NCBI RefSeq assembly: GCF_046105845.1
Contig: NZ_CP151004.1
Strand: one strand, 5' to 3'
Origin: Escherichia coli
GTDB lineage: Bacteria > Pseudomonadota > Gammaproteobacteria > Enterobacterales > Enterobacteriaceae
DNA: 64,000 nt
Under the pieces are notes generated by a model. The model did no database searches and had not been told where the DNA came from. It saw only the letters and a list, made by a program, of their open reading frames with translations. Shown piece after piece: positions 4,561-51,467 of the stretch (position 1 is its first letter; each line of letters opens with the position of its first letter). The position numbers were made by a program, and so were the translations under genes.

Positions 4561-6549
4561 TTGCGCGTAAGTCGCTCGTTAACAATCAAGCAGATGGCAA
4601 TGGTGGCAGCCGTTGTCCTGGTGTTCGTTTTTATTTTTTGCACCGTTTTGCTGTTCCATCTGGTCCAGCAGAATCGCTATAACACGGCTACGCAACTGGA
4701 AAGCATTGCTCGCTCTGTCCGCGAACCCTTATCTTCAGCTATTTTGAAAGGCGATATTCCCGAAGCGGAAGCTATTCTTGCCAGCATTAAACCGGCAGGC
4801 GTGGTCAGCCGTGCCGATGTAGTGCTGCCTAACCAGTTCCAGGCGCTGCGTAAAAGTTTTATTCCAGAGCGTCCGGTGCCGGTAATGGTTACTCGCATGT
4901 TTGAGCTACCGGTTCAAATCTCGCTGGGTGTCTACTCGCTCGAACGTCCGGCAAATCCGCAGCCAATTGCCTATCTGGTGCTACAGGCGGATTCCTTCCG
5001 CATGTATAAGTTCGTGATGAGCACCCTCTCAACGTTAGTGACCATTTACTTACTTTTGTCGTTAATATTGACGGTGGCGATTAGCTGGTGCATTAACCGC
5101 CTGATTTTGCATCCGTTACGCAATATTGCTCGCGAACTTAACGCCATCCCTGCCCAGGAGCTTGTTGGTCACCAACTGGCATTACCACGTCTGCATCAGG
5201 ACGATGAAATCGGTATGCTGGTGCGCAGTTACAACCTCAACCAGCAATTGCTGCAGCGCCATTATGAAGAACAGAACGAAAACGCGATGCGCTTCCCGGT
5301 GTCGGATTTGCCGAACAAAGCCTTGCTGATGGAGATGCTGGAGCAGGTTGTCGCGCGTAAACAAACCACCGCGCTGATGATCATCACCTGTGAAACCCTG
5401 CGTGATACTGCGGGCGTGCTGAAAGAGGCGCAACGAGAAATTCTGCTGCTGACGCTGGTGGAAAAACTCAAATCGGTACTGTCGCCACGTATGATCCTCG
5501 CGCAGATTAGTGGTTATGACTTTGCTGTCATTGCCAACGGGGTACAGGAACCGTGGCACGCAATCACTTTGGGTCAGCAAGTGCTCACTATCATGAGCGA
5601 GCGCCTGCCGATTGAACGTATTCAACTCCGTCCGCACTGTAGCATTGGCGTGGAGATGTTCTACGGCGATCTCACCGCCGAACAGCTTTACAGTCGCGCT
5701 ATTTCTGCGGCATTTACCGCTCGCCATAAAGGCAAGAATCAGATTCAGTTCTTTGATCCGCAGCAGATGGAAGCCGCCCAACAGCGGTTGACGGAAGAGA
5801 GCGATATCCTTAATGCACTGGAAAATCATCAGTTTGCGATTTGGTTACAGCCACAGGTCGAGATGACCAGCGGTAAACTGGTCAGTGCAGAAGTGTTACT
5901 GCGTATCCAGCAACCGGATGGCAGTTGGGATCTGCCGGATGGCTTAATCGATCGCATTGAGTGCTGTGGGCTGATGGTTACCGTCGGTCACTGGGTGCTG
6001 GAAGAGTCCTGTCGATTGCTTGCTGCCTGGCAAGAGCGCGGCATTATGCTGCCCTTGTCGGTAAACCTCTCAGCGCTGCAACTGATGCATCCAAATATGG
6101 TGGCGGATATGCTGGAACTGTTAACCCGCTATCGCATTCAGCCGGGAACACTGATTCTGGAAGTGACAGAAAGCCGACGTATTGACGACCCTCATGCTGC
6201 GGTGGCAATCCTCCGTCCGTTGCGTAATGCCGGAGTTCGGGTGGCGCTGGATGATTTCGGCATGGGCTATGCGGGGCTGCGTCAGCTGCAGCATATGAAA
6301 TCGTTGCCAATCGACGTACTGAAAATCGACAAAATGTTTGTTGAAGGTTTGCCGGAAGATAGCAGCATGATTGCTGCAATTATCATGCTGGCGCAGAGCC
6401 TGAACTTACAAATGATTGCCGAAGGCGTGGAGACTGAAGCACAACGCGACTGGCTGGCAAAAGCGGGCGTTGGTATTGCCCAGGGCTTCCTTTTTGCTCG
6501 CCCACTCCCTATTGAAATCTTCGAAGAGAGTTACCTGGAAGAAAAGTAG
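4561..6549 (+). CDS. pdeK: Membrane c-di-GMP phosphodiesterase PdeK (YhjK); degenerate GGDEF (SGYDF) plus EAL (EVL) domain
   Basis: 662-aa ORF from a TTG start (alternative ATG at 4594); N-terminal TM segments, SGYDF in place of GGDEF, EVLLR EAL motif. Confidence 0.88.
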
Positions 6550-6695
6550 CTACCCCAAACTGATTACAAAACTTTAAAAAGTGCTGGTTTGTGCGAGCCA
6601 GCTCAAACTTTTTAACCTTTTTGTTTCAATTATGATCCAGGTACATTTCTGTGATGTTGTCTGGGTGTTATTTTAAGGCCGCAGGTACCCCATAA

Positions 6696-8018
<1,323 letters not shown>

Positions 8019-25225: not shown

Positions 25226-25241
25226 AGTTTTACTCAGACAT

Positions 25242-25347
25242 AAAAAAAACCCGGCATAGGGGACCGGGAAGAGGATAGTCTGCCGTCTCCAGACTAATAA
25301 ACCGTTATAACACTCCCTGTTGGCACGGGAAACTTTGTGCTCTCAGT
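25242..25347 (-). ncRNA. gadY: GadY small RNA, cis-antisense to the gadX 3' end
   Basis: Minus-strand sequence actgagagcacaaagtttcccgtgccaacaggg...cccggtcccctatgccgggtttttttt matches GadY as recalled; terminal hairpin plus U-tract. Confidence 0.8.
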
Positions 25348-25593
25348 AAGTTAAATATAACTTTTACTGGAAATAAGATCAGCCATTTTTTTATAAACAT
25401 AAGCTATACGCTGTGCGAAAATATATTCGTGCTGCATTTACTTATTATCAATTAACTGTTATGCAAAACTACTTTGTGGATAAATTTTGGTCCTACCAAA
25501 TCTGGCAGTTTTTGCGCTAAGAAACAGTCTGGCATCATTTCATTAGTATACTGAAATTGAAATAATCGCAGTAATGAAATATAAGGGATAGTC

Positions 25594-30980: not shown

Positions 30981-31318
30981 TTTAGTCCCTGAAAATTCTT
31001 GAGAAATAACGGTTCTTTAAATTGCGCGCGAGGAGAGATATGAGGGATTTACAGACCAGCGGCGTAGTGGGGTTGTCAGCCAGTAAGGTGGGATACAGGC
31101 ATAGTGATCGACATGGTGAGGTCAACGACAAAAAAAATGTTGCCGTTCTGCCAACAGTTCCTGCCAGCATTCGGGCAACGAAGGGTTCTACTGGTGGATA
31201 CATATACCAGGGGAATAAAGTCGTTTTAACCTCTCCTTTAGTAATCACCGGGGGTAATGAAATCAGCATCTGCATCCCTCGTCATGCCAGCCATCAATTT
31301 CAGTTGCTTATGTCCTGA

Positions 31319-35008: not shown

Positions 35009-35779
35009 TTAATGATCGAGGACGATCAGTGGTGAATGGTTGGCAGGATCTTTAAGTACGGTAATATCCGCGCCGTAGAGCATTGTCAGCGCCTGCTGTG
35101 TCAATACATCCTGCGGTTTACCATTTGCGATAACCTTTCCTTTTTGCATTAATACAATACGGTCTGCATAACGTGCGGCAAGATTTAGATCGTGCAATAC
35201 GCAGCAAACATTGAATTGCCGTTCGTGAACTAACTGGCGTAATAAACGGAACAAGTGCTGCTGATGGTGAATATCCAGCGCCGAAGTTGGTTCATCAAGA
35301 AATAACCATTTCGGTGAGGGAGTAGGTTCCCAGAGTTGCACCAGCAGGCGCGCTAATTGCACGCGCTGTTGTTCACCACCGGATAATTGCCGATAGTCGC
35401 GGTTTGCTAACGCCTGACAGTCACATAACGCCATTATTTGTGCTGTTTCATTATCCTGATTACCAGTACGATGCGGATGCCGACCCATCTGGATAACTTC
35501 TTGTACGCTGAATGGAAACGCCATGTGGCTATTTTGACGCATCACGGCCCGGTGTTTCGCCAGTTCAGTAATCGACCATTCATTTAATGGCTTATTAAAC
35601 AACCGACATTCGCCGCTATCAGGTTGAAGATAGCCGGTTAACTGGCGAAGCAGCGTAGATTTTCCCGCACCATTAGGGCCGAGAATGGCAACAATTTCCC
35701 CACCGGGAAAAGTCAGCGAGACATTATCAGTCAGACGCCGCCCCTGAAGGCTATAAACCAGATTCTGGGCGCTGATCAT
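35009..35779 (-). CDS. chuV: Haemin ABC transporter ATP-binding protein (ChuV/HmuV)
   Basis: Walker [13 protein letters not shown] signature LSGGEQQR, Walker [12 protein letters not shown]; start at internal Met (MISAQNL) overlapping the chuU stop as ATGA. Confidence 0.9.
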
Positions 35780-36768
35780 GTGATCCTCCGGTTGCGCAGA
35801 ATCAACCACATAAAATAAGGACCACCAAGCAGGCTGGTTAATAATCCCACGGGCATTTCTGCTGGCTGTACCAGCGTGCGGGCAAGCGTGTCTGCCATCA
35901 GCAATAAACAGGCTCCGGCGAGGGCGGAACAAGGGATTAGCCAGCGGTGATTTGCTCCGGTAGTCATGCGAATCAGATGCGGGATTACCAGGCCAATAAA
36001 GCCGATAATGCCGCTTACCGATACGGCAGCACCAACGAGCAGTGAGCTCACTAACAGTAATTGCTGGCGTTTACGCTTAACGTTCACGCCGAGGTAATGG
36101 GCTTCTTCATCACCGAGCTGCAGTAAATTCAGCGTTCCGGCGAGATAAGTTGTTGCGATAATGGCCGGTAGGATGAATGAACTGGCAACCAATAACGTCG
36201 GCCATTGCGCCTGTCCAAGATTGCCCATCATCCACAATGTGAGTTGTCGTAGCTGCTGCTCATCGCCGATATAGCTCAGGATGCCGATCGCTGCGCCGCA
36301 CAGGGCATTGATGGCGATACCGGCGAGTAATAATTGCATCATGCTGCCATCGCGATGGCGCTGCGTGATGAGAAAAATGATGGTGCAGACCACTAAACTT
36401 CCGGCAATGGCAAACACCATTTGCTCATAGAGCACCAGCACCACTGGGAAGGAGAAGGGCAGCACAATAGCAACGCCAACCATTAATGCAGAACCGCTAC
36501 TGACGCCGAGTAATCCAGGGTCAGCCATTGGGTTGCGAAAAAGCCCCTGCATAATTACCCCGGCGGTTGCCAACGCTGCACCTACCAGCACCGCCAGCAA
36601 AACCCGTGGTAGACGAATATTGAGCCAGATATCGCGGTATTCCTCATCAAAAAGGGCATCAAAACTGATCTTTAACGCTCCCTGACTGGCACCGAACAGC
36701 ACTAGGGCAAGCAATAATAGTGATAGCCCCATAAAGACCCTGGCGGATGAAAATGAATCCTTGAGCAC
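35776..36768 (-). CDS. chuU: Haemin ABC transporter permease (FecCD family) ChuU
   Basis: 330-aa polytopic ORF; 2-nt overlap into chuV. Confidence 0.9.
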
Positions 36769-36818
36769 GCAAAACTCCGTTATGACGTTGCGGCGCGGAG
36801 AGTCTGCGCCGCATGGGA

Positions 36819-37442
36819 TTACGCCGGTTTCAGGTCAGGTTCAATCAGACTGTAGATCTGCTTGTTGAGTGCTGGCGCGTTTGCCAGTTCATGAATGTGT
36901 GCAGCGACATCGGCACGGTGAACAAAACCATGACACTCCTGATGTTGTATCCGTTGTGCTTTGCCCGTTGCCGCACCATCAAGCAGACCGCCAGGGCGGA
37001 GAATGGCGTAATCAAGCTGGCTGGTTTGCAACCAGCTTTCCGCCAGCGTTTTTTCCCGTACCGCCTGACCAAACGCAGCCTTTGCCCGCTCCGATAAAAA
37101 CGGCCAGCTATCGCCGCATCCCAAAGAGGTCACCAGAATCATGCGACTGATGCCGGCCTTTTCGGCCTCATCAATCACTGTTCTGTGCGCCAGATAATCC
37201 TGAGCTCCGCCCATTGTTGAGATGATAAGCGCATCCGGGCCAGCTGCGCGGCAAGCAGCCGCAACTACGCTGGCATCACAGGCGTCGCCTGTAAAAACCT
37301 GTACGCCTTGTTGCGCCAGTTTCGTGGCGGCATCGGCATGACGAATGACAGCAACGACCGGACGTTGTTCCGCCAGCGCCAGTTCAAGCGTTCTGGCACC
37401 CACACCTTTTCCGCCTGCGCCAAAGAGTAGCCACGGCGTCAT
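36819..37442 (-). CDS. chuY: NAD(P)-binding Rossmann-fold reductase ChuY (haem catabolite reductase)
   Basis: 207-aa ORF with N-terminal GxGxxG-like motif (LLFGAGGKGVGA); start overlaps the chuX stop by 1 nt. Confidence 0.85.
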   Translation of the reverse strand: MTPWLLFGAGGKGVGARTLELALAEQRPVVAVIRHADAATKLAQQGVQVFTGDACDASVVAAACRAAGPDALIISTMGGAQDYLAHRTVIDEAEKAGISRMILVTSLGCGDSWPFLSERAKAAFGQAVREKTLAESWLQTSQLDYAILRPGGLLDGAATGKAQRIQHQECHGFVHRADVAAHIHELANAPALNKQIYSLIEPDLKPA

Positions 37443-37936
37443 CAGGCGTGCTCCTTTAACGATGCCGCCAGAGCATGGAAAGCGTTGACCTGTTCGCTCA
37501 GGAGCTGACGATGGTCATCCCTGCCGAGGAAGATTTTCAGCATGGCGCTGCCTTCCTTATTGAAAAAGAGAATAGAGGCGGTGTCCATGCCCATAAATTT
37601 ACGTTCGATCAAGGCAATATGCGTGCAGTTTTCTGCTTTGATATGCCCGGACATGCCGTGCTTTCCGCGTAGGTTGAAATAGCCGTGGCGGTGGAAACCC
37701 GAAGGCAGTTCGCCGCTAAATTCGAGGATTACATCGGCAGTATGTACTAACGTGGTGACGTTGCCCCATTCGCAGACGGTATCCCAGACAGTATCGAATT
37801 TATCGCCTGACACTATGGTAGAGGAGGGCAGATTTTTCACTACTTCCAGCAGTGTGGTGTTGTATTGTTCGGCTACCACCTCCAGCGTACCGTCCGGCTC
37901 CGTTTTCAAAAATTCTTGTAACGAGACATGGCTCAT
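37442..37936 (-). CDS. chuX: Haem utilisation / haem-binding protein ChuX
   Basis: 164-aa ORF between chuW and chuY. Confidence 0.85.
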   Translation of the reverse strand: MSHVSLQEFLKTEPDGTLEVVAEQYNTTLLEVVKNLPSSTIVSGDKFDTVWDTVCEWGNVTTLVHTADVILEFSGELPSGFHRHGYFNLRGKHGMSGHIKAENCTHIALIERKFMGMDTASILFFNKEGSAMLKIFLGRDDHRQLLSEQVNAFHALAASLKEHA

Positions 37937-37948
37937 AAATCACTCCTG

Positions 37949-39286
37949 TTATGGTTTTTCACGCACAATCGCTGGCGCATTAAGTACCTGAATTAGTTCA
38001 TTAAGAGACTGCAAAATATTGCTTGCCCAGAAACGACCTTCATTAGTCAGCCGCAGGCAAGTTGAAGCATCGCGGCTTAAGCCTTTTTGGTGCCATTGAG
38101 CCAGTAACGGCGCGAGTTTTTCGGCATGTGGCGTAAGTTCATCCAGCGGTACACGCGCTGTTTCAACACCTGACTGCAAGGTATGACGCCATTGCGCATT
38201 ACGTTCGGCGTTACGCATGATCATCATCAGCGGTTTTTTGCCTGCCGCGACGGATTCATGCCAGGTCTGCAGATTGCGTTCGTTCATCCAGGAGTAACCA
38301 TTAATCGAACCGCCGGCTCCGGAACCAAAGGCCAGACAATCGGCACCTTGTTTAATCAGCAGGTTATAGAGATTGCATTCGCGTGTGGTACGGCCCCAGT
38401 GGCTGTTACTAATACAGCGCCAACCGGCTTCGTCCATGAAGTCACACCCTTGCAGATAAAGATCGCGACGTTCTGCCGGAGAGGGCACGGTAGTACGCCC
38501 ATTTTCCACGGCTTTGCCCAGCGGTGTATTGGGCAGGACATTGAGCGCATAGAGATCGACGCCGTCGAGACCGATATCGCGAGCAATAGCCAGATCTTCT
38601 CCCCAGGTTTGCGCATCCTGACCCGGCAGGCCAAACAGCAGGTCACAGACCACCGCTGCACGGTCGCGTTTGACCAGGCTTTCCATAAACGCAATGGCGG
38701 TTGGGCCATCCGAGGTGCGGGCCATTTTCTTGCGGATTTTGCTGTTAAACGACTGAATACCAATTGAGAAGCGGTTTGCTCCTGCATCAAGGCAAGCATC
38801 GATTCGCTCAGCGTCAAAATTCAGTACCCGGCCTTCGATAGTGATTTCACAATCAGGGGCCAGTGGCAGCTTTTCTCGTAATGTGGTGATAATTCTGGCC
38901 AAATCGTGTGCCGAAAGCGCGGAAGGCGTGCCGCCACCGAAATAGACCGCGTGGATGGGGGCAGACTGATGCAATACGCTGTCCGCTTCCATTTCTATTT
39001 CACGAATCAGGGCGTCGGTATAATGAGCACACGCATCCTCATTAAAACGGTTCTGATAAAAACCACAAAACGTGCAGTGTGTCGCACAAAAAGGAATGTG
39101 TAGATAAACCAGTCGCTTACGTGGTGATACCGTTTGATTGATCATCTCTTGCCAGGTCTGTGCCAGTTGCTCTTTGGCAACTGGAATGGCCCCACGAAAC
39201 GGCATCATGGCGCGCCTGTCTTTAAATGGCTGATCACCGTCTAAAGCAAAATGTGGCGTGAGATCCAGGGTGTTATTTACGTTCAT
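37949..39286 (-). CDS. chuW: Radical-SAM anaerobic haem-degrading enzyme ChuW (HemN-like)
   Basis: 445-aa ORF with CxxxCxxC motif (CATHCTFC) near the N-terminus. Confidence 0.9.
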   Translation of the reverse strand: MNVNNTLDLTPHFALDGDQPFKDRRAMMPFRGAIPVAKEQLAQTWQEMINQTVSPRKRLVYLHIPFCATHCTFCGFYQNRFNEDACAHYTDALIREIEMEADSVLHQSAPIHAVYFGGGTPSALSAHDLARIITTLREKLPLAPDCEITIEGRVLNFDAERIDACLDAGANRFSIGIQSFNSKIRKKMARTSDGPTAIAFMESLVKRDRAAVVCDLLFGLPGQDAQTWGEDLAIARDIGLDGVDLYALNVLPNTPLGKAVENGRTTVPSPAERRDLYLQGCDFMDEAGWRCISNSHWGRTTRECNLYNLLIKQGADCLAFGSGAGGSINGYSWMNERNLQTWHESVAAGKKPLMMIMRNAERNAQWRHTLQSGVETARVPLDELTPHAEKLAPLLAQWHQKGLSRDASTCLRLTNEGRFWASNILQSLNELIQVLNAPAIVREKP

Positions 39287-39305: not shown

Positions 39306-40220
39306 TTATTGCGGCCAAAGCTGCTGGTGTAAAGACTCAACGACATCAGCAATACGCGGACCCATTCCCAGAATCAGGTTTTGATCAACGGTGATAATGC
39401 GCTGGTTTTTCCATGCGGCAGTGTGGGTAATTCCGGCAATAGAACGTAGCCGGTTAATATCGCCATCGACCATTTGTGAGGTTACGACAATCACTTCTGG
39501 ATTAGCCGCAATCAGTGATTCTGCACTGTAGCTTTTGTACTGCTGGTGGGTTGCGACGTTTTCTGCTCCGGCAAGCGAAAGAATGGCGTCCGCGACGCTG
39601 CCTTTACCGGCAACCTGTGGCGCACTTCCGCCTGCGGAGAGAATAAACATGGCTTTAACCGGGGCTTTTTTGGCCGCCACGTTTTGCTGTACTCGCTCCA
39701 GGCGTTGGTTGATCTGTGTCACCAGCGCCTCGCCTTGTTCAGGAACCTGTAGCGTTTTTGCCAGTTGGCGAATGTTGGCGTACATCTGCTGAAGGGTGGC
39801 AGGCACACGCGGCAGGGTGACGACGTTGACTTTCTGCGCTCGTAATTGGTCGAGCACAATTTGTGGCCCGGCATCCTGCCAGGTAATTACGCTATCCGGG
39901 CGAAGTGACAAAATGCCTTCGCTGTTGAGTTGTTTCCAGTAGCCAATATGCGGCAGTTTGGCGGTTTCTGGTGGATAAGATGTCGTTTCATCGACACCAA
40001 CCACGCGTTCGCCAGCGCCCATCGCGTAGATTAGCTCCGTCAGCGATCCTCCTGCGACCACGATACGTTCGGCAGCCGTTACGCTAAAAGCCCAGCTAAG
40101 AGCCAGTACTGCCGTAAACAATTTTTTTCGTTTTACCGCGGTCTTCGCGGCAGAGGCCACGGCTGAAATACATAACGTCAGTGGAGAAAAAAGAAACGGC
40201 CTGGTGATGATCCTTGGCAT
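39306..40220 (-). CDS. chuT: Periplasmic haemin-binding protein ChuT (start uncertain)
   Basis: Substrate-binding-protein-like ORF; the longest ORF start (40298) lies upstream of a Fur box, so the ATG at 40220 or a downstream non-ATG start before the signal-like KKLFTAVLALSWAFSVTA is more likely. Confidence 0.8.
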   Translation of the reverse strand: MPRIITRPFLFSPLTLCISAVASAAKTAVKRKKLFTAVLALSWAFSVTAAERIVVAGGSLTELIYAMGAGERVVGVDETTSYPPETAKLPHIGYWKQLNSEGILSLRPDSVITWQDAGPQIVLDQLRAQKVNVVTLPRVPATLQQMYANIRQLAKTLQVPEQGEALVTQINQRLERVQQNVAAKKAPVKAMFILSAGGSAPQVAGKGSVADAILSLAGAENVATHQQYKSYSAESLIAANPEVIVVTSQMVDGDINRLRSIAGITHTAAWKNQRIITVDQNLILGMGPRIADVVESLHQQLWPQ

Positions 40221-40245
40221 AATATGAGAACTCTTATCAAGTTGA

Positions 40246-40264
40246 GAATGATCATGATTATCAT
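40246..40264. promoter_or_regulatory. Fur box at the chuT(WXYUV) promoter
   Basis: gaatgatcatgattatcat closely matches the Fur consensus gataatgataatcattatc. Confidence 0.65.
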
Positions 40265-40594
40265 TTGAGTTATATATGAAATACAACCGTCGATTCAATA
40301 CGCACGGCGTTACAAGCGTATTTATTTTTGATTTTTATCAAGATGCTTCGTCAGCTAACGTTCTTGTTACCGACTAAATTTCAGCGCGGGAAAAAGCTGA
40401 GAACCCAGAGATATCGAGGCTTGCAGAGCAAAGCGAAGAGAAAATTATCACTGTTAACGACAAAGTTTAGTGATGAGGTCATGGGGGAATAACCATAAAA
40501 ATAAAGTGGTTTTCAGGGCGCGGGATAGGTTTCATAACCCCCTGTTTATTGTGTTAATGGCGGTTAAAAAAAGCTTGATCATAAAAAATTGATC

Positions 40595-40613
40595 GATAAT
40601 AATTCTCATTATC
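40595..40613. promoter_or_regulatory. Fur box at the chuA promoter
   Basis: gataataattctcattatc matches 15 of 19 consensus positions; about 290 bp upstream of the chuA ATG, implying a long 5' leader. Confidence 0.65.
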
Positions 40614-40881
40614 ACATTTGCGCTTAACAAAACACGACCATATGGATAACAAAACCATAGCATTTGCAAGGGATAACGCACAGCGCTCTTCACTCCTGAT
40701 GGGGCATATCGTTTTGCCTGACAAAGAGGGCGTGCTTTTGCGTATTTGCCGAGATACCAGGCAATTTCATGGGATATAAACGCCTGTAAACTCACCCGGC
40801 GAATATTATCGCCCTGAATTTTAAATAAATTTATTTTTCGCCAGCCACCCCGGTATTAACCCAGGCAGCCAGCATTTTTTA

Positions 40882-40896
40882 TTTTCCTCATGGAGA
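40882..40896 (+). promoter_or_regulatory. U-rich/SD hairpin in the chuA leader (candidate FourU-type RNA thermometer)
   Basis: ttttcc tcat ggaga: the U-rich tract can pair with the GGAG Shine-Dalgarno just 5' of the ATG. Confidence 0.4.
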
Positions 40897-40902
40897 ATCG
40901 CT

Positions 40903-42885
40903 ATGTCACGTCCGCAATTTACCTCGTTGCGTTTGAGTTTGTTGGCTTTGGCTGTTTCTGCCACCTTGCCAACGTTTGCTTTTGCTACTGAAACCATGAC
41001 CGTTACGGCAACGGGGAATGCCCGTAGTTCCTTCGAAGCGCCTATGATGGTCAGCGTCATCGACACTTCCGCTCCTGAAAATCAAACGGCTACTTCAGCC
41101 ACCGATCTGCTGCGTCATGTTCCTGGAATTACTCTTGATGGTACCGGACGAACCAACGGTCAGGATGTAAATATGCGTGGCTATGATCATCGCGGCGTGC
41201 TGGTTCTTGTCGATGGTGTTCGCCAGGGAACGGATACCGGACACCTGAATGGTACTTTTCTTGATCCGGCGCTGATCAAGCGTGTTGAGATTGTTCGCGG
41301 ACCTTCAGCATTACTGTATGGCAGTGGCGCGCTGGGTGGGGTGATCTCCTACGATACGGTCGATGCAAAAGATTTATTGCAGGAAGGACAAAGTAGTGGT
41401 TTTCGTGTCTTTGGTACTGGCGGCACGGGGGACCATAGCCTGGGATTAGGCGCGAGCGCGTTTGGACGAACTGAAAATCTGGATGGTATTGTGGCCTGGT
41501 CCAGTCGCGATCGGGGTGATTTACGCCAGAGCAATGATGAAACCGCGCCGAATGACGAGTCCATTAATAACATGCTGGCGAAAGGGACCTGGCAAATTGA
41601 TTCAGCCCAGTCTCTGAGCGGTTTAGTGCGTTACTACAACAACGACGCGCGTGAACCAAAAAATCCGCAGACCGTTGAAGCTTCTGATAGCAGCAACCCG
41701 ATGGTTGATCGTTCAACAATTCAACGCGATGTGCAGCTTTCTTATAAACTCGCCCCGCAGGGCAACGACTGGTTAAATGCAGATGCAAAAATTTACTGGT
41801 CGGAAGTCCGTATTAATGCGCAAAACACGGGGAGTTCCGGCGAGTATCGTGAACAGATAACAAAAGGAGCCAGGCTGGAGAACCGTTCCACTCTATTTGC
41901 CGACAGTTTCGCTTCTCACTTACTGACATATGGCGGTGAGTATTATCGTCAGGAACAACATCCGGGCGGCGCGACGACGGGCTTCCCGCAAGCAAAAATC
42001 GATTTTAGCTCTGGCTGGCTACAGGATGAGATCACCTTACGCGATCTGCCGATTACCCTGCTTGGCGGAACCCGCTATGACAGTTATCGCGGTAGCAGCG
42101 ACGGCTACAAAGATGTTGATGCTGACAAATGGTCATCTCGTGCGGGGATGACTATCAACCCGACCAACTGGCTGATGTTATTTGGCTCATATGCCCAGGC
42201 ATTCCGCGCCCCGACGATGGGCGAAATGTATAACGATTCTAAGCACTTCTCGATTGGTCGCTTCTATACCAACTATTGGGTGCCAAACCCGAACTTACGT
42301 CCGGAAACTAACGAAACTCAGGAGTACGGTTTTGGGCTGCGTTTTGATGACCTGATGTTGTCCAATGATGCCCTGGAATTTAAAGCCAGCTACTTTGATA
42401 CCAAAGCGAAGGATTACATCTCCACGACCGTCGATTTCGCGGCGGCGACAACTATGTCGTATAACGTCCCGAACGCCAAAATCTGGGGTTGGGATGTGAT
42501 GACGAAATATACCACTGATCTGTTTAGCCTTGATGTGGCCTATAACCGTACCCGCGGCAAAGACACCGATACCGGCGAATATATCTCCAGTATTAACCCG
42601 GATACCGTTACCAGCACCCTGAATATTCCGATCGCTCACAGTGGCTTCTCTGTTGGGTGGGTTGGTACGTTTGCCGATCGCTCAACACATATCAGCAGCA
42701 GTTACAGCAAACAACCAGGCTATGGCGTGAATGATTTCTACGTCAGTTATCAAGGACAACAGGCGCTCAAAGGTATGACCACTACTTTGGTGTTGGGTAA
42801 CGCTTTCGACAAAGAGTACTGGTCGCCACAAGGCATCCCACAGGATGGTCGTAATGGAAAAATTTTCGTGAGTTATCAATGGTAA
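40903..42885 (+). CDS. chuA: TonB-dependent outer-membrane haem/haemoglobin receptor ChuA
   Basis: 660-aa ORF with signal peptide, TonB-box-like region (ETMTVTAT) and aromatic C-terminus ending ...VSYQW. Confidence 0.95.
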   Translation: MSRPQFTSLRLSLLALAVSATLPTFAFATETMTVTATGNARSSFEAPMMVSVIDTSAPENQTATSATDLLRHVPGITLDGTGRTNGQDVNMRGYDHRGVLVLVDGVRQGTDTGHLNGTFLDPALIKRVEIVRGPSALLYGSGALGGVISYDTVDAKDLLQEGQSSGFRVFGTGGTGDHSLGLGASAFGRTENLDGIVAWSSRDRGDLRQSNDETAPNDESINNMLAKGTWQIDSAQSLSGLVRYYNNDAREPKNPQTVEASDSSNPMVDRSTIQRDVQLSYKLAPQGNDWLNADAKIYWSEVRINAQNTGSSGEYREQITKGARLENRSTLFADSFASHLLTYGGEYYRQEQHPGGATTGFPQAKIDFSSGWLQDEITLRDLPITLLGGTRYDSYRGSSDGYKDVDADKWSSRAGMTINPTNWLMLFGSYAQAFRAPTMGEMYNDSKHFSIGRFYTNYWVPNPNLRPETNETQEYGFGLRFDDLMLSNDALEFKASYFDTKAKDYISTTVDFAAATTMSYNVPNAKIWGWDVMTKYTTDLFSLDVAYNRTRGKDTDTGEYISSINPDTVTSTLNIPIAHSGFSVGWVGTFADRSTHISSSYSKQPGYGVNDFYVSYQGQQALKGMTTTLVLGNAFDKEYWSPQGIPQDGRNGKIFVSYQW

Positions 42886-42933: not shown

Positions 42934-43962
42934 ATGAACCACTACACACGCTGGCTTGAGTTAAAAGAACAAAATCCCGGAAAGTACGCGCGTGACATCG
43001 CAGGTTTAATGAATATTAGCGAAGCAGAACTGGCATTTGCACGCGTCACGCACGATGCGTGGCGGATGCGCGGCGATATCCGTGAAATTCTGGCGGCGCT
43101 CGAAAGTGTTGGCGAGACCAAATGTATTTGTCGTAATGAATATGCAGTCCATGAGCAAGTTGGTGCGTTCACAAACCAGCATTTGAACGGACATGCCGGA
43201 TTGATCCTCAATCCACGCGCGCTGGATTTGCGTCTGTTTCTCAATCAATGGGCCAGTGTTTTCCACATCAAAGAAAATACGACTCGTGGCGAACGCCAGA
43301 GTATTCAGTTCTTTGATCATCAGGGCGATGCATTACTAAAAGTTTATGCCACCGACAATACCGATATGGCGGCATGGAGTGAGCTTCTGGCACGGTTTAT
43401 CGCCGATGAGAATACGCCGCTTGAGTTAAAAGCCGTTGATGCGCCAGTCGTTCAAATGCGAGCCGATGCCAGTGTGGTCGAGCAAGAGTGGCGGGCGATG
43501 ACCGACGTTCATCAGTTTTTTACGTTGCTCAAGCGCCACAACCTGACGCGCCAACAGGCGTTCAATCTGGTGGCAGACGATTTGGCCTGCAAAGTATCCA
43601 ACAGTGCGTTGGCGCAAATTCTTGAATCTGCACAGCAGGATGGCAATGAAATCATGGTGTTTGTTGGCAACCGTGGCTGCGTACAGATTTTCACTGGCGT
43701 GGTAGAAAAAGTGGTGCCAATGAAAGGTTGGCTGAATATTTTTAACCCGACGTTTACTCTTCATCTATTAGAAGAGAGCATTGCTGAAACCTGGGTAACC
43801 CGTAAACCTGCTAGTGACGGTTATGTGACCAGTCTGGAATTGTTTGCCCATGATGGTACGCAGATAGCGCAACTTTATGGTCAACGTACAGAAGGCGAAC
43901 AGGAGCAAGCGCAATGGCGTAAGCAAATTGCTTCGCTGATACCGGAAGGCGTTACTGTATAA
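42934..43962 (+). CDS. chuS: Cytoplasmic haem oxygenase / haem utilisation protein ChuS
   Basis: 342-aa ORF immediately downstream of chuA. Confidence 0.92.
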   Translation: MNHYTRWLELKEQNPGKYARDIAGLMNISEAELAFARVTHDAWRMRGDIREILAALESVGETKCICRNEYAVHEQVGAFTNQHLNGHAGLILNPRALDLRLFLNQWASVFHIKENTTRGERQSIQFFDHQGDALLKVYATDNTDMAAWSELLARFIADENTPLELKAVDAPVVQMRADASVVEQEWRAMTDVHQFFTLLKRHNLTRQQAFNLVADDLACKVSNSALAQILESAQQDGNEIMVFVGNRGCVQIFTGVVEKVVPMKGWLNIFNPTFTLHLLEESIAETWVTRKPASDGYVTSLELFAHDGTQIAQLYGQRTEGEQEQAQWRKQIASLIPEGVTV

Positions 43963-45518: not shown

Positions 45519-46742
45519 TTATGGGATTATATTCTGGTAATGATTTGATAAGCGAATTCTTTTGCCAGTTGGTATTTCTATTTCCACCCCATAATTTATA
45601 GTTTTTTCATCAGGTAGCGATCTCTTTAAATAAGGTGCGCATGACATTTTTTTTGGGTTAAGCGTCTCGCGTTGAAATACTTCGAATTGATATTCAGACA
45701 TTTCTGCCCATGTTTGAATTTTATTGTATCGGGAGAGTGTCGTAAAGGCTTTAACTTGCTTATAACATTGTTTTTTGAATTCTTGCTGATATTTTAATAT
45801 GTCATTGTATGAAATATTGGTTATCCTGGCCTCTAAGAATTTAATTATTGTCGAAGCAATTTCCGCTTTTGCTCGTAAAAAGTTGTCATTAATGGTTAAT
45901 AATGTTGAAAATAAACCTTCGATTTGTTTGTCAAGATATTGTTCGTCTTTATATAATTTGGGGGTAGGGTGTTCTTTATGTGAAAAAATAGTGTCACCTA
46001 AATTTGCGTCAGTGAAATTTATATTAAGTAGATCTTCGAAATAAAACCTTGACAAGGTTAGAACGAACCCGGACAGGTTCTGTCCTGTCATATTGAAATC
46101 AATAAAGTTGGTTCCGGCAAAGACTTTCATCCTGTTTTTATTTTCACTGTGCTCAATATATAACTTCGTCATTTTTTGATACAGGTTTTGAATATCTTTT
46201 ATATTAGTCGGTAAGTCAGCTCGTTGTTCAGCAATAAAATTAGTATCTGAAAACGTGGTTTGGACACTGAATGTTATGGGTATTCCCTCTTCTACGCTAA
46301 TTTTAGTTATGATTGCCTTGTCGGGTTTAGGATTAGCGACAACAATGATTCGACATTCAGCACTTTTGTTCTTTTCGTATCTAATGTTATTAATTTGATT
46401 AAGTAGTCCCTGTGCCTGCCGCGTAAGTGGTGTCGAACTTATCGATTCAATGTTAGTAATAAGACTTACAAGTTGAGCCACAACTTTGGAGTAGTCTGCA
46501 TTTGTATATGTGGTGTTCGTGCGGCACGCATAAATTTGTGGGAGGTGTTTCCGCGCTAAATCATATTGTTCAGGGTTGTATCCTTCTCCAGAGAATGGGG
46601 AATTAATGGGTTGTTGTTCTTCCTGATTATCACAAGGCCACATCGGTGTGTCTGGTGTTTTAACATTGTCGGTATCTGTTGTGCGGTTATAAATATCGCC
46701 GTGATATGTATTTATCATACTTGGGGTAAAGTCAATTGACAT
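45519..46742 (-). CDS. yhiS: YhiS-type hypothetical protein, intact 407 aa; polar N-terminus and a pentapeptide-repeat-like tract
   Basis: ATG at 46742 with SD aagga 6 nt upstream; very AT-rich; no signal peptide or TM segment; central tract [45 protein letters not shown]. Confidence 0.8.
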
Positions 46743-50997: not shown

Positions 50998-51148
50998 ATT
51001 GCGCTCCTGATTGTTGCCGGTAGTGTCTCTCTTCGAAGCGGATAAGTCAAAAACATATATGACTTAACGAATATGTAAGTGTGGAGAAAGGTATAGATGT
51101 GAATTAAGCGTTGGGTATTCATTTGAAAGGAGGTCTGAATCAGGACGT

Positions 51149-51233
51149 AAAAAAACCGACTTTGCGTCGGTTTTTTACTTTCCAGCCCTGAGTTGGTGGC
51201 TCTGGCTGGAGTGAGAGAGCTCTTATCTAACAG
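51149..51233 (-). ncRNA. agrB: agr-type antisense sRNA repeat (probably agrB), antitoxin of dinQ
   Basis: About 85 nt between arsR and dinQ; minus-strand transcript would end at hairpin ccgacgcaaagtcgg plus U-tract; body is complementary to a dinQ leader segment (ctggccggagtgagagagttcttatctaaca at about 51632-51662); A/B assignment from recalled K-12 order. Confidence 0.5.
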
Positions 51234-51383
51234 TTCAATACTATTAGCCAGTGGCTAACATTGCAAGAATTAGCGATTTCTTCAGCTGGAGAAGGGACAG
51301 TTTGCTATACATGTTGGTGAAAGAGGATTTATATACTTTCATCGGGTCGCTGCCGTACCAAGCCTTGTCCGAATCCGGACGTA

Positions 51384-51467
51384 AAAAAACCGACTTCGCG
51401 TCGGTTTTTTACTTTCCAGCCCTGAGTTGGTGGCTCTGGTTGGAGTGAGAATGCCATCATCTAACGC
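51384..51467 (-). ncRNA. agrA: agr-type antisense sRNA repeat (probably agrA)
   Basis: Second copy of the same repeat and hairpin, 235 bp from the first. Confidence 0.5.

What the first reader, a model, noticed from the sequence alone, without database searches (positions are those of the whole stretch)
36819..39286. chuW-chuX-chuY: tightly coupled anaerobic haem-degradation trio
ChuW carries the radical-SAM CxxxCxxC signature (CATHCTFC), ChuY has an N-terminal Rossmann-type glycine motif, and chuX/chuY overlap by one nucleotide (stop/start), consistent with translational coupling. Together with chuS this would give the locus both an oxygen-dependent and an oxygen-independent route to release iron from haem.
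Basis: partly seen in the sequence, partly recalled or inferred. Interest (0 to 1): 0.3.

Follow-up and report, generated by a model that had tools for sequence, protein, structure and literature searches.

The report
Known E. coli anaerobic haem-degradation genes chuWXY

Summary
On the minus strand lie chuW (37949-39286, 445 aa), chuX (37442-37936, 164 aa) and chuY (36819-37442, 207 aa). ChuW has CATHCTFC at residues 67-74. ChuY has GAGGKG at residues 8-13. The chuX stop and chuY start share one base (TGATG).

The interpretation also holds:
- ChuW scores 567 bits on the ChuW/HutW equivalog model (cut-off 400).
- ChuX is about 97% identical to solved ChuX (2OVI).
- ChuY is about 98% identical to solved ChuY (5FFQ, 5GUY).
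- RefSeq annotates the same DNA in 2238 of 5426 complete E. coli genomes as ChuW/HutW, HutX and anaerobilin reductase.
- ChuW and ChuY biochemistry is published.

Corrections:
- The trio is the middle of a compact chuT-W-X-Y-U-V array. The only Fur boxes and promoter-like sites lie upstream of chuT.
- Pfam does not call a HemN C-terminal domain (E = 0.12), although a family profile aligns across it.
- The chuX/chuY junction varies between genera (-1, -4, +14 nt).
- Calling ChuS simply the "oxygen-dependent" route is disputed in the literature.

One oddity: this ChuW has Cys304 where every compared relative has Arg.

Verdict: already known, low interest.

The parts
37949..39286 (-). chuW: class C radical-SAM methyltransferase (anaerobilin synthase), 445 aa
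   Evidence: ORF. TIGR04107 ChuW/HutW equivalog 567 bits against cut-off 400. PF04055 E = 7.7e-21. RefSeq annotation of 99.9% identical DNA. Profile alignment to HemN 1OLT over residues 52-434.
39065..39088 (-). Codons for CATHCTFC (ChuW C67, C71, C74), the [4Fe-4S] cluster-binding CxxxCxxC motif
   Evidence: Invariant in 25 family members. Aligned with the HemN CHKLCYFC motif.
38375..38377 (-). ChuW codon 304, TGC (Cys) in this window where relatives have Arg
   Evidence: Arg in the 99.9% relative, O157:H7, F11 and CFSAN061770. Arg in 23 of 23 aligned family members that have the position; no exact match in complete E. coli genomes; aligns with HemN R308.
37442..37936 (-). chuX: cytoplasmic haem-binding carrier (ChuX/HutX), 164 aa
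   Evidence: PF06228 E = 2e-35. TIGR04108 210 bits against cut-off 110. About 97% identical to PDB 2OVI ChuX.
37440..37444 (-). TGATG: chuX stop and chuY start sharing one base (37442). AAGGAG Shine-Dalgarno-like sequence 7 nt upstream, inside chuX
   Evidence: The same overlap is present in O157:H7, F11 and CFSAN061770 alleles.
36819..37442 (-). chuY: NADPH-dependent anaerobilin reductase, 207 aa
   Evidence: PF13460 E = 5e-37. About 98% identical to PDB 5FFQ and 5GUY. RefSeq name 'anaerobilin reductase'.
37404..37421 (-). Codons for GAGGKG (ChuY residues 8-13), the Rossmann-type dinucleotide-binding glycine motif
39306..40220 (-). chuT: periplasmic haem-binding protein, first gene of the array. 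RefSeq start is at 40220; the mechanical ORF runs to a TTG at 40298
35776..36768 (-). chuU: haem ABC transporter permease
35009..35779 (-). chuV/hmuV: haem ABC transporter ATPase. Its start overlaps the chuU stop by 4 nt (ATGA)
   Evidence: NF010068 395 bits against cut-off 261.
36789..36813 (-). GC-rich hairpin in the 50-nt chuY-chuU spacer, with no T-run after it
   Evidence: A hairpin is present in all four alleles but in a different register. The fold z-scores are weak (-0.4 to -1.6).
40244..40268 (.). Two overlapping Fur-box matches (16/19 and 15/19) just upstream of chuT, overlapping a minus-strand promoter-like site
40595..40613 (.). Fur-box match (17/19, the best in the window) overlapping a plus-strand promoter-like site upstream of chuA
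40874..40905 (+). shuA/chuA 5' UTR RNA thermometer
   Evidence: Rfam RF02597, 60.1 bits against gathering score 58.
40903..42885 (+). chuA: TonB-dependent haem/haemoglobin outer-membrane receptor
   Evidence: TIGR01785 587 bits. RefSeq annotation.
42934..43962 (+). chuS: cytoplasmic haem-binding/degrading protein
   Evidence: E = 1e-225 to PDB 1U9T and 4CDP. RefSeq name 'hematinate-forming heme oxygenase ChuS'.

Best explanation
The region is the chuW-chuX-chuY segment of the E. coli chu haem-utilisation island. The proposed sequence of events is as follows. Haem enters through ChuA and the ChuTUV transporter. ChuX, and possibly ChuS, binds it in the cytoplasm. Under anaerobic, iron-limited conditions ChuW opens the ring. 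ChuW is a [4Fe-4S] class C radical-SAM methyltransferase reduced by flavodoxin. It cleaves one SAM to a 5'-deoxyadenosyl radical, which generates a methylene radical on a second SAM. That radical adds to a meso carbon of the porphyrin and the ring opens, releasing iron and the linear tetrapyrrole anaerobilin. ChuY then reduces anaerobilin with NADPH, probably to limit its toxicity. The three genes are most likely transcribed with chuT, chuU and chuV from a Fur-repressed promoter upstream of chuT. The chuX/chuY stop-start overlap probably helps ribosomes pass from chuX to chuY. Shown here: gene identities, motifs, near-identity to the characterised proteins, gene order, junctions, Fur-box positions. 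Taken from the literature: the chemistry. Inferred: the single transcript, translational coupling, and the activity of this particular allele.
For: Family models: TIGR04107 567 bits against cut-off 400, and TIGR04108 210 bits against 110. Pfam Radical_SAM, ChuX_HutX and NAD_binding_10. ChuY is about 98% identical to 5FFQ/5GUY and ChuX about 97% to 2OVI. ChuW differs from O157:H7 ChuW at 7 of 445 residues. RefSeq names for the same DNA in 2238 of 5426 complete E. coli genomes. CxxxCxxC, GGGTP and the N-terminal 26 residues are conserved across genera. The W-X-Y order is conserved in Citrobacter, Leminorella and Pectobacterium. The three best Fur-box matches of the 64-kb window all fall in the chuT-chuA spacer and overlap promoter-like sites. 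Published mechanism and ChuY function: PMC10114669, PMC12670364, PMC12077173, PMC6449446.
Against: No experiment bears on this strain. Its ChuW carries Cys304 at a position that is Arg in every compared homologue and in HemN, which could reduce activity. Pfam HemN_C is below threshold. One review describes chuWXY as a three-gene operon and another as part of chuTWXYUhmuV, and I could not settle the transcript structure by sequence. Promoter-like sites were no more frequent than in shuffled sequence. The variable chuX/chuY junction in other genera shows that the one-base overlap is not required.
Confidence: 0.93

Rival explanations
1. The genes are chuWXY, but in this particular strain ChuW is impaired or inactive because of the private R304C change. 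Anaerobic haem degradation would then be weakened, and the strain would depend on ChuS or other iron sources.
For: Arg304 is present in the 99.9% identical relative, in three other E. coli alleles, and in all 23 aligned family members that have the position, down to 59% identity. No complete E. coli genome matches the 38-mer or 61-mer around the codon exactly. The profile alignment places it on HemN R308, directly before N309-F310-Q311. From my recollection of the HemN structure paper, not checked here, that segment contacts the second SAM.
Against: The rest of the gene is intact and nearly identical to functional alleles. A single conserved-site substitution is often tolerated. It may be a sequencing error. 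No mutational data for this residue were found.
Confidence: 0.2
2. The main physiological role of the trio is detoxification of excess haem and tetrapyrroles in the anaerobic gut rather than iron acquisition, with iron release as a by-product.
For: A 2025 review states that anaerobic haem degraders are increasingly seen as haem-detoxification enzymes. It also states that ChuW accepts metal-free and non-iron porphyrins. The reported chuY deletion phenotype suggests that the ChuW product is toxic.
Against: The locus sits behind Fur boxes together with a haem receptor and importer, which is the signature of iron acquisition. The two roles are not mutually exclusive.
Confidence: 0.15
3. ChuX serves mainly as a regulator or buffer of ChuS-dependent haem degradation rather than as the haem donor to ChuW, so the 'trio' is not a linear pathway.
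For: [quoted passage not shown] ChuX shares the HemS/ChuX fold (PF05171, E = 1e-4).
Against: hutX-type genes follow hutW-type genes even where no chuS is nearby: within the 5-kb flanks shown for Citrobacter, and in the stand-alone Pectobacterium trio. HutX is reported to deliver haem to HutW anaerobically.
Confidence: 0.15

Closest known systems
E. coli O157:H7 / CFT073 ChuW, ChuX, ChuY (LaMattina et al. 2016 and 2017; Suits et al. 2009; Kim et al. 2017, as cited in PMC10114669 and PMC12670364)
   Same: Same genes, same order, same junctions. ChuW differs at 7 of 445 residues, ChuX at 5 of 164 and ChuY at 4 of 207 from an O157:H7 allele. The solved ChuX and ChuY structures are of near-identical sequence.
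   Different: Allelic differences only. The one notable difference is ChuW R304C, private to this sequence. The chuY Shine-Dalgarno-like sequence is AAGGAG here and AAGGAA in the other alleles.
Vibrio cholerae hutWXZ
   Same: A radical-SAM HutW followed by HutX, Fur-regulated, degrading haem anaerobically. Both fall under the same NCBIfam equivalog models.
   Different: The third gene is hutZ, a peroxide-dependent haem oxygenase with a different fold, not a ChuY-type reductase. HutW uses NADPH directly and releases an already reduced product. There is no ChuS homologue. HutW is 39% identical to ChuW (all).
E. coli HemN/CpdH (PDB 1OLT), oxygen-independent coproporphyrinogen III oxidase
   Same: Same fold family. 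The family profile aligns over residues 52-434 of ChuW at E = 3.6e-39, covering the CxxxCxxC motif, the GGGTP motif and the C-terminal domain.
   Different: HemN scores far below the ChuW model here (TIGR00538: 127 bits against a cut-off of 325). HemN decarboxylates a biosynthetic intermediate, whereas ChuW methylates and opens haem. ChuW lacks the fourth cysteine of the HemN motif: CYFCGC in HemN, CTFCGF in ChuW.
Fusobacterium nucleatum HmuW/HmuF and Enterococcus faecalis RS05575
   Same: ChuW-type anaerobilin synthases used to obtain iron from haem anaerobically.
   Different: Distant sequences (23% identity for the enterococcal enzyme). In Fusobacterium the anaerobilin reductase is a flavodoxin-like protein, not a ChuY-type Rossmann protein. 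The enterococcal gene is monocistronic and not Fur-regulated.

Membership tests
ChuW/HutW anaerobilin synthase (class C radical-SAM methyltransferase, TIGR04107) | Whole-protein score above the curated equivalog cut-off | tested here: met
   567.3 bits against cut-off 400, covering model positions 2-418 of 419.
ChuW/HutW anaerobilin synthase (class C radical-SAM methyltransferase, TIGR04107) | CxxxCxxC motif ligating the [4Fe-4S] cluster, within a radical-SAM core | tested here: met
   C67, C71 and C74. PF04055 E = 7.7e-21. Invariant in 25 homologues. Aligned with the HemN motif.
ChuW/HutW anaerobilin synthase (class C radical-SAM methyltransferase, TIGR04107) | HemN-like C-terminal domain | tested here: inconclusive
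   Pfam HemN_C gives only E = 0.12, 12.9 bits against a cut-off of 24. The family profile nevertheless aligns with HemN 1OLT through residue 434.
ChuW/HutW anaerobilin synthase (class C radical-SAM methyltransferase, TIGR04107) | All family-invariant residues retained | tested here: not met
   Residue 304 is Cys; all 23 aligned homologues that have the position carry Arg. The other invariant columns are retained. This bears on the activity of this allele, not on homology.
ChuW/HutW anaerobilin synthase (class C radical-SAM methyltransferase, TIGR04107) | Linked to a hutX-type gene and haem-uptake genes | tested here: met
   chuT-W-X-Y-U-V with chuA-chuS divergent. W-X-Y order is also found in three other genera.
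ChuW/HutW anaerobilin synthase (class C radical-SAM methyltransferase, TIGR04107) | SAM-dependent anaerobic opening of haem to anaerobilin with release of iron | not testable with these tools
   Published for the O157:H7 enzyme. That enzyme differs from this one at 7 residues.
ChuX/HutX haem carrier (PF06228, TIGR04108) | Score above curated cut-offs and near-identity to the solved ChuX | tested here: met
   PF06228 122 bits against cut-off 25. TIGR04108 210 bits against cut-off 110. E = 3e-107 to 2OVI with 5 substitutions.
ChuY anaerobilin reductase (NAD(P)H-binding Rossmann protein, PF13460) | N-terminal GxGxxG dinucleotide-binding motif in an NAD_binding_10 domain | tested here: met
   GAGGKG at residues 8-13. 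PF13460 128 bits against cut-off 27.2, covering profile positions 1-184 of 184.
ChuY anaerobilin reductase (NAD(P)H-binding Rossmann protein, PF13460) | Orthology with the characterised ChuY | tested here: met
   E = 7e-133 to 5FFQ and 5GUY over all 207 residues with 4 substitutions. Same position after chuX. No NCBIfam HMM matched, so RefSeq's name must rest on another kind of rule.
ChuY anaerobilin reductase (NAD(P)H-binding Rossmann protein, PF13460) | NADPH-dependent reduction of anaerobilin | not testable with these tools
   Reported in the literature.
Translationally coupled gene pair | Stop/start overlap with a ribosome-binding site inside the upstream gene | tested here: met
   TGATG overlap with AAGGAG 7 nt upstream. 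The overlap is conserved in four E. coli alleles. It is not conserved across genera: -1, -4 and +14 nt.
Translationally coupled gene pair | chuY translation depends on translation of chuX | not testable with these tools
   This needs reporter fusions with premature stop codons in chuX.

The most novel reading that the evidence does not exclude
This strain carries a naturally occurring ChuW variant, R304C, at a residue that is Arg in all compared ChuW homologues and in HemN, next to the segment that in HemN lines the second SAM site. If the change is real and damaging, the strain would be a natural knock-down of anaerobic haem degradation. The residue would also become a handle on how class C radical-SAM methyltransferases position the second SAM or the porphyrin.
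Probability: 0.2. Interest if true: 0.25.

Novelty: already known. Interest (0 to 1): 0.07.

Why it matters
The chu island lets pathogenic and many commensal E. coli take iron from host haem, and ChuW/ChuY explain how this can work in the anoxic gut. That is established knowledge, so nothing new follows from finding the genes here. The result is still useful for the scan in three ways:
- The annotation is confirmed.
- The trio should be read as part of a six-gene chuTWXYUV array behind a Fur box.
- One private substitution in ChuW is worth a glance if this strain is ever used for haem-utilisation work.

Tried and rejected
It is below threshold (E = 0.12). I resolved this with a profile-to-HemN alignment instead.
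- **An internal promoter or terminator that would set chuWXY apart from chuT and chuUV.** The consensus scan found no promoter-like site between chuT and chuW. Promoter-like sites were fewer than in shuffles (6 found, 10.1 expected). The terminator-like hits inside the genes have weak stems and look like chance.
- **A Fur box in front of chuW.** There is none. The only matches of 15/19 or better in the 64-kb window are in the chuT-chuA spacer.
- **The chuY-chuU hairpin as a significant structure.** The fold z-scores are only -0.4 to -1.6, so I record it as a note, not a claim.
- **An alternative chuW start at Met27.** The published residue numbering (R311 there, R337 here) suggested it. I rejected it as the natural start because residues 8-26 are conserved across genera and the equivalog model aligns from residue 19.
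- **Reading the primary papers** (PMC5087033, PMC7189753, PMC7210504). They are not held, so the chemistry is cited from reviews and later papers.
Full report
**Observation**

The ORF list shows three consecutive minus-strand ORFs that fill the reported interval exactly:

| Gene | Window coordinates | Length |
|---|---|---|
| chuW | 37949-39286 | 445 aa |
| chuX | 37442-37936 | 164 aa |
| chuY | 36819-37442 | 207 aa |

- Translation gives CATHCTFC at ChuW residues 67-74 and GGGTP at 117-121.
- ChuY begins MTPWLLFGAGGKGVG, with GxGxxG at residues 8-13.
- On the coding strand the chuX/chuY junction reads ...AAAGGAGCACGCCTGATGACG.... The TGA stop of chuX and the ATG of chuY share base 37442, and AAGGAG lies 7 nt upstream.

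**Identity**

- ChuW matches Pfam Radical_SAM (E = 7.7e-21). It matches the NCBIfam equivalog 'heme anaerobic degradation radical SAM methyltransferase ChuW/HutW' at 567 bits against a cut-off of 400. The HemN, HemW and HemZ models all score far below their own cut-offs.
- ChuX matches ChuX_HutX (PF06228) and the HutX equivalog. It differs from the solved O157:H7 ChuX (2OVI) at five residues.
- ChuY matches NAD_binding_10 over the full profile. It differs from the solved ChuY structures 5FFQ and 5GUY at four residues.
- No ChuW structure exists in the PDB copy. The nearest chains are HemN 1OLT and the methyltransferase NocN.

**Population and context**

- The 3.1-kb stretch is found once per genome, always on the chromosome, in 2238 of 5426 complete E. 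coli genomes. RefSeq annotates it there as hutW, hutX and chuY (anaerobilin reductase). The best match is 99.9% identical.
- The window is an E. coli chromosome segment running from bcsZ to yhiM.
- The chu genes sit between yhiD and dctR/slp, among the gadE, hdeAB and gadAXW acid-resistance genes.
- The full set is chuV (35009-35779), chuU, chuY, chuX, chuW and chuT (39306-40220) on the minus strand, with chuA (40903-42885) and chuS (42934-43962) on the plus strand.

**Organisation**

- The junctions along the minus-strand array are: chuT to chuW +19 nt, chuW to chuX +12, chuX to chuY -1, chuY to chuU +50, and chuU to chuV -4 (ATGA).
- I scored a 19-mer Fur consensus over the whole 64-kb window. 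The only three matches of 15/19 or better all fall in the 682-bp chuT-chuA spacer:
  - 40244-40262 (16/19) and 40250-40268 (15/19), next to the chuT start;
  - 40595-40613 (17/19), upstream of chuA.
- Each overlaps a promoter-like site on the appropriate strand.
- Nothing comparable lies in front of chuW. The simplest reading is one Fur-repressed chuTWXYUV transcript, as one review states. Another review speaks of a three-gene operon. I could not decide between them from sequence alone.
- Rfam finds the known shuA/chuA RNA thermometer at 40874-40905.

- I aligned 24 homologues from Escherichia, Shigella, Klebsiella, Citrobacter, Raoultella, Salmonella, Yokenella, Erwinia, Pantoea, Limnobaculum, Paramixta, Leminorella, Pectobacterium, Brenneria and metagenomes. 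They reach down to 59% identity.
- The query for searches lacked Met1, so alignment numbers are one lower than protein numbers.
- C67, C71 and C74, the GGGTP motif and many other positions are invariant. The refutation criterion 'cysteines missing on alignment' is therefore not met.
- Residues 8-29 are also conserved. This supports the ATG at 39286 as the start rather than Met27.
- Pfam HemN_C is not called (E = 0.12). A profile built from the alignment nevertheless aligns with HemN 1OLT from residue 52 to 434 at E = 3.6e-39, which includes the C-terminal domain.

**Conservation of the trio**

| Genome | Locus | Gene order | chuX/chuY junction |
|---|---|---|---|
| Citrobacter | L008 | receptor-T-W-X-Y-U-V | 1-nt overlap |
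| Leminorella grimontii | L010 | W-X-Y-U-V | 4-nt overlap |
| Pectobacterium aquaticum | L009 | W-X-Y alone, no transporter genes beside it | 14-nt gap |

- W-X-Y is therefore a conserved module, but the one-base overlap is not a conserved requirement.
- Within E. coli the TGATG overlap is identical in the O157:H7, F11 and CFSAN061770 alleles.
- Translational coupling is plausible but untested.

**Mechanism, from the literature**

- ChuW is an oxygen-sensitive class C radical-SAM methyltransferase. With reduced flavodoxin it cleaves SAM and generates a methylene radical on a second SAM. The radical adds to the porphyrin, the ring opens, and iron and anaerobilin are released.
- ChuY reduces that product with NADPH, and a chuY deletion phenotype suggests the product is toxic.
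- HutX-type proteins are reported to deliver haem to the degrading enzymes.
- ChuS has been described in three ways: as an aerobic degrader, as a haem store that hands haem to ChuW anaerobically, and as an NADH-dependent anaerobic degrader in vitro.

**One oddity**

- This ChuW has Cys at residue 304 (TGC, window 38375-38377).
- The 99.9% relative differs from the window's ChuW only by having Arg there. O157:H7, F11 and CFSAN061770 also have Arg.
- All 23 aligned homologues that have the position carry Arg.
- None of the complete E. coli genomes that match the surrounding 61-mer (2235 genomes) or 38-mer (1800 genomes) matches it exactly.
- The profile alignment puts this Arg on HemN R308, directly before N309-F310-Q311. 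From memory, that segment lines the second SAM site in the HemN structure; I did not check this here.
- The change could be a sequencing error, a neutral change or a damaging one.

**Verdict**

The system is already known and well characterised. Interest is low.

Noticed in passing
window 38375-38377 (minus strand, ChuW codon 304): Cys in place of an Arg that is present in the 99.9% identical relative, in three other E. coli alleles, in all 23 aligned homologues that have the position, and in HemN (R308). No complete E. coli genome has an exact match to the surrounding 38-mer or 61-mer.
   Followed up: yes
window 36789-36813 (minus strand), chuY-chuU spacer: A GC-rich hairpin (7-8 bp stem) starts 6 nt after the chuY stop and has no T-run after it. 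Other E. coli alleles have a hairpin there too, but with a different sequence and register. The fold z-scores are weak. It might modulate the chuTWXY to chuUV expression ratio or mRNA stability.
   Followed up: partly
window 40244-40268 and 40595-40613: The three best Fur-box matches of the whole 64-kb window (16/19, 15/19 and 17/19) all lie in the 682-bp chuT-chuA spacer. Each overlaps a promoter-like site for the divergent operons.
   Followed up: yes
window 40874-40905 (+): Rfam shuA/chuA 5' UTR thermoregulator (FourU thermometer), just above its gathering score (60.1 against 58).
   Followed up: no
L005 (E. coli HH97) 6118-6980: A natural deletion fuses a 111-aa chuY remnant to dctR. It removes chuX, chuW, chuT, chuA and chuS but keeps chuU and chuV, leaving a decaying chu island.
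   Followed up: partly
P0002 (Shigella dysenteriae) and P0003 (E. coli), 412 aa: In the alignment, P0002 has a 33-residue internal deletion that removes the highly conserved ERNLYNLLIKQGADCLAFGSGAGGS...block, so it is probably an inactive variant. P0003 has the same 412-aa length but was not aligned.
   Followed up: no
L009 (Pectobacterium aquaticum) 5001-7455: The chuW-chuX-chuY trio stands alone there, with no haem receptor or ABC transporter genes within 5 kb. This shows that the trio moves as an independent module.
   Followed up: partly
window 39209-39286 (first 26 codons of chuW): The published ChuW residue numbering (R311) fits R337 of this ORF. That suggests the literature numbers from Met27. 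However, residues 8-26 are conserved across genera, so the longer form is probably the natural protein.
   Followed up: partly
window 25237-25350 (-), 31130-31201 (-), 51147-51230 (-), 51381-51464 (-): Rfam gathering-level matches to GadY sRNA, ES205 sRNA and two AgrB antisense RNAs (next to dinQ). All are expected for this part of the E. coli chromosome.
   Followed up: no
window 45519-46742 (-): A 407-aa ORF lies where the closest genome annotates a frameshifted hypothetical gene (corresponding to roughly 45624-46740). I did not check whether the window copy is intact.
   Followed up: no
window 37458-37462 (minus strand, end of chuX): A synonymous GAA to GAG change in chuX codon 162 turns the chuY ribosome-binding sequence from AAGGAA (other alleles) into AAGGAG in this lineage.
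   Followed up: partly
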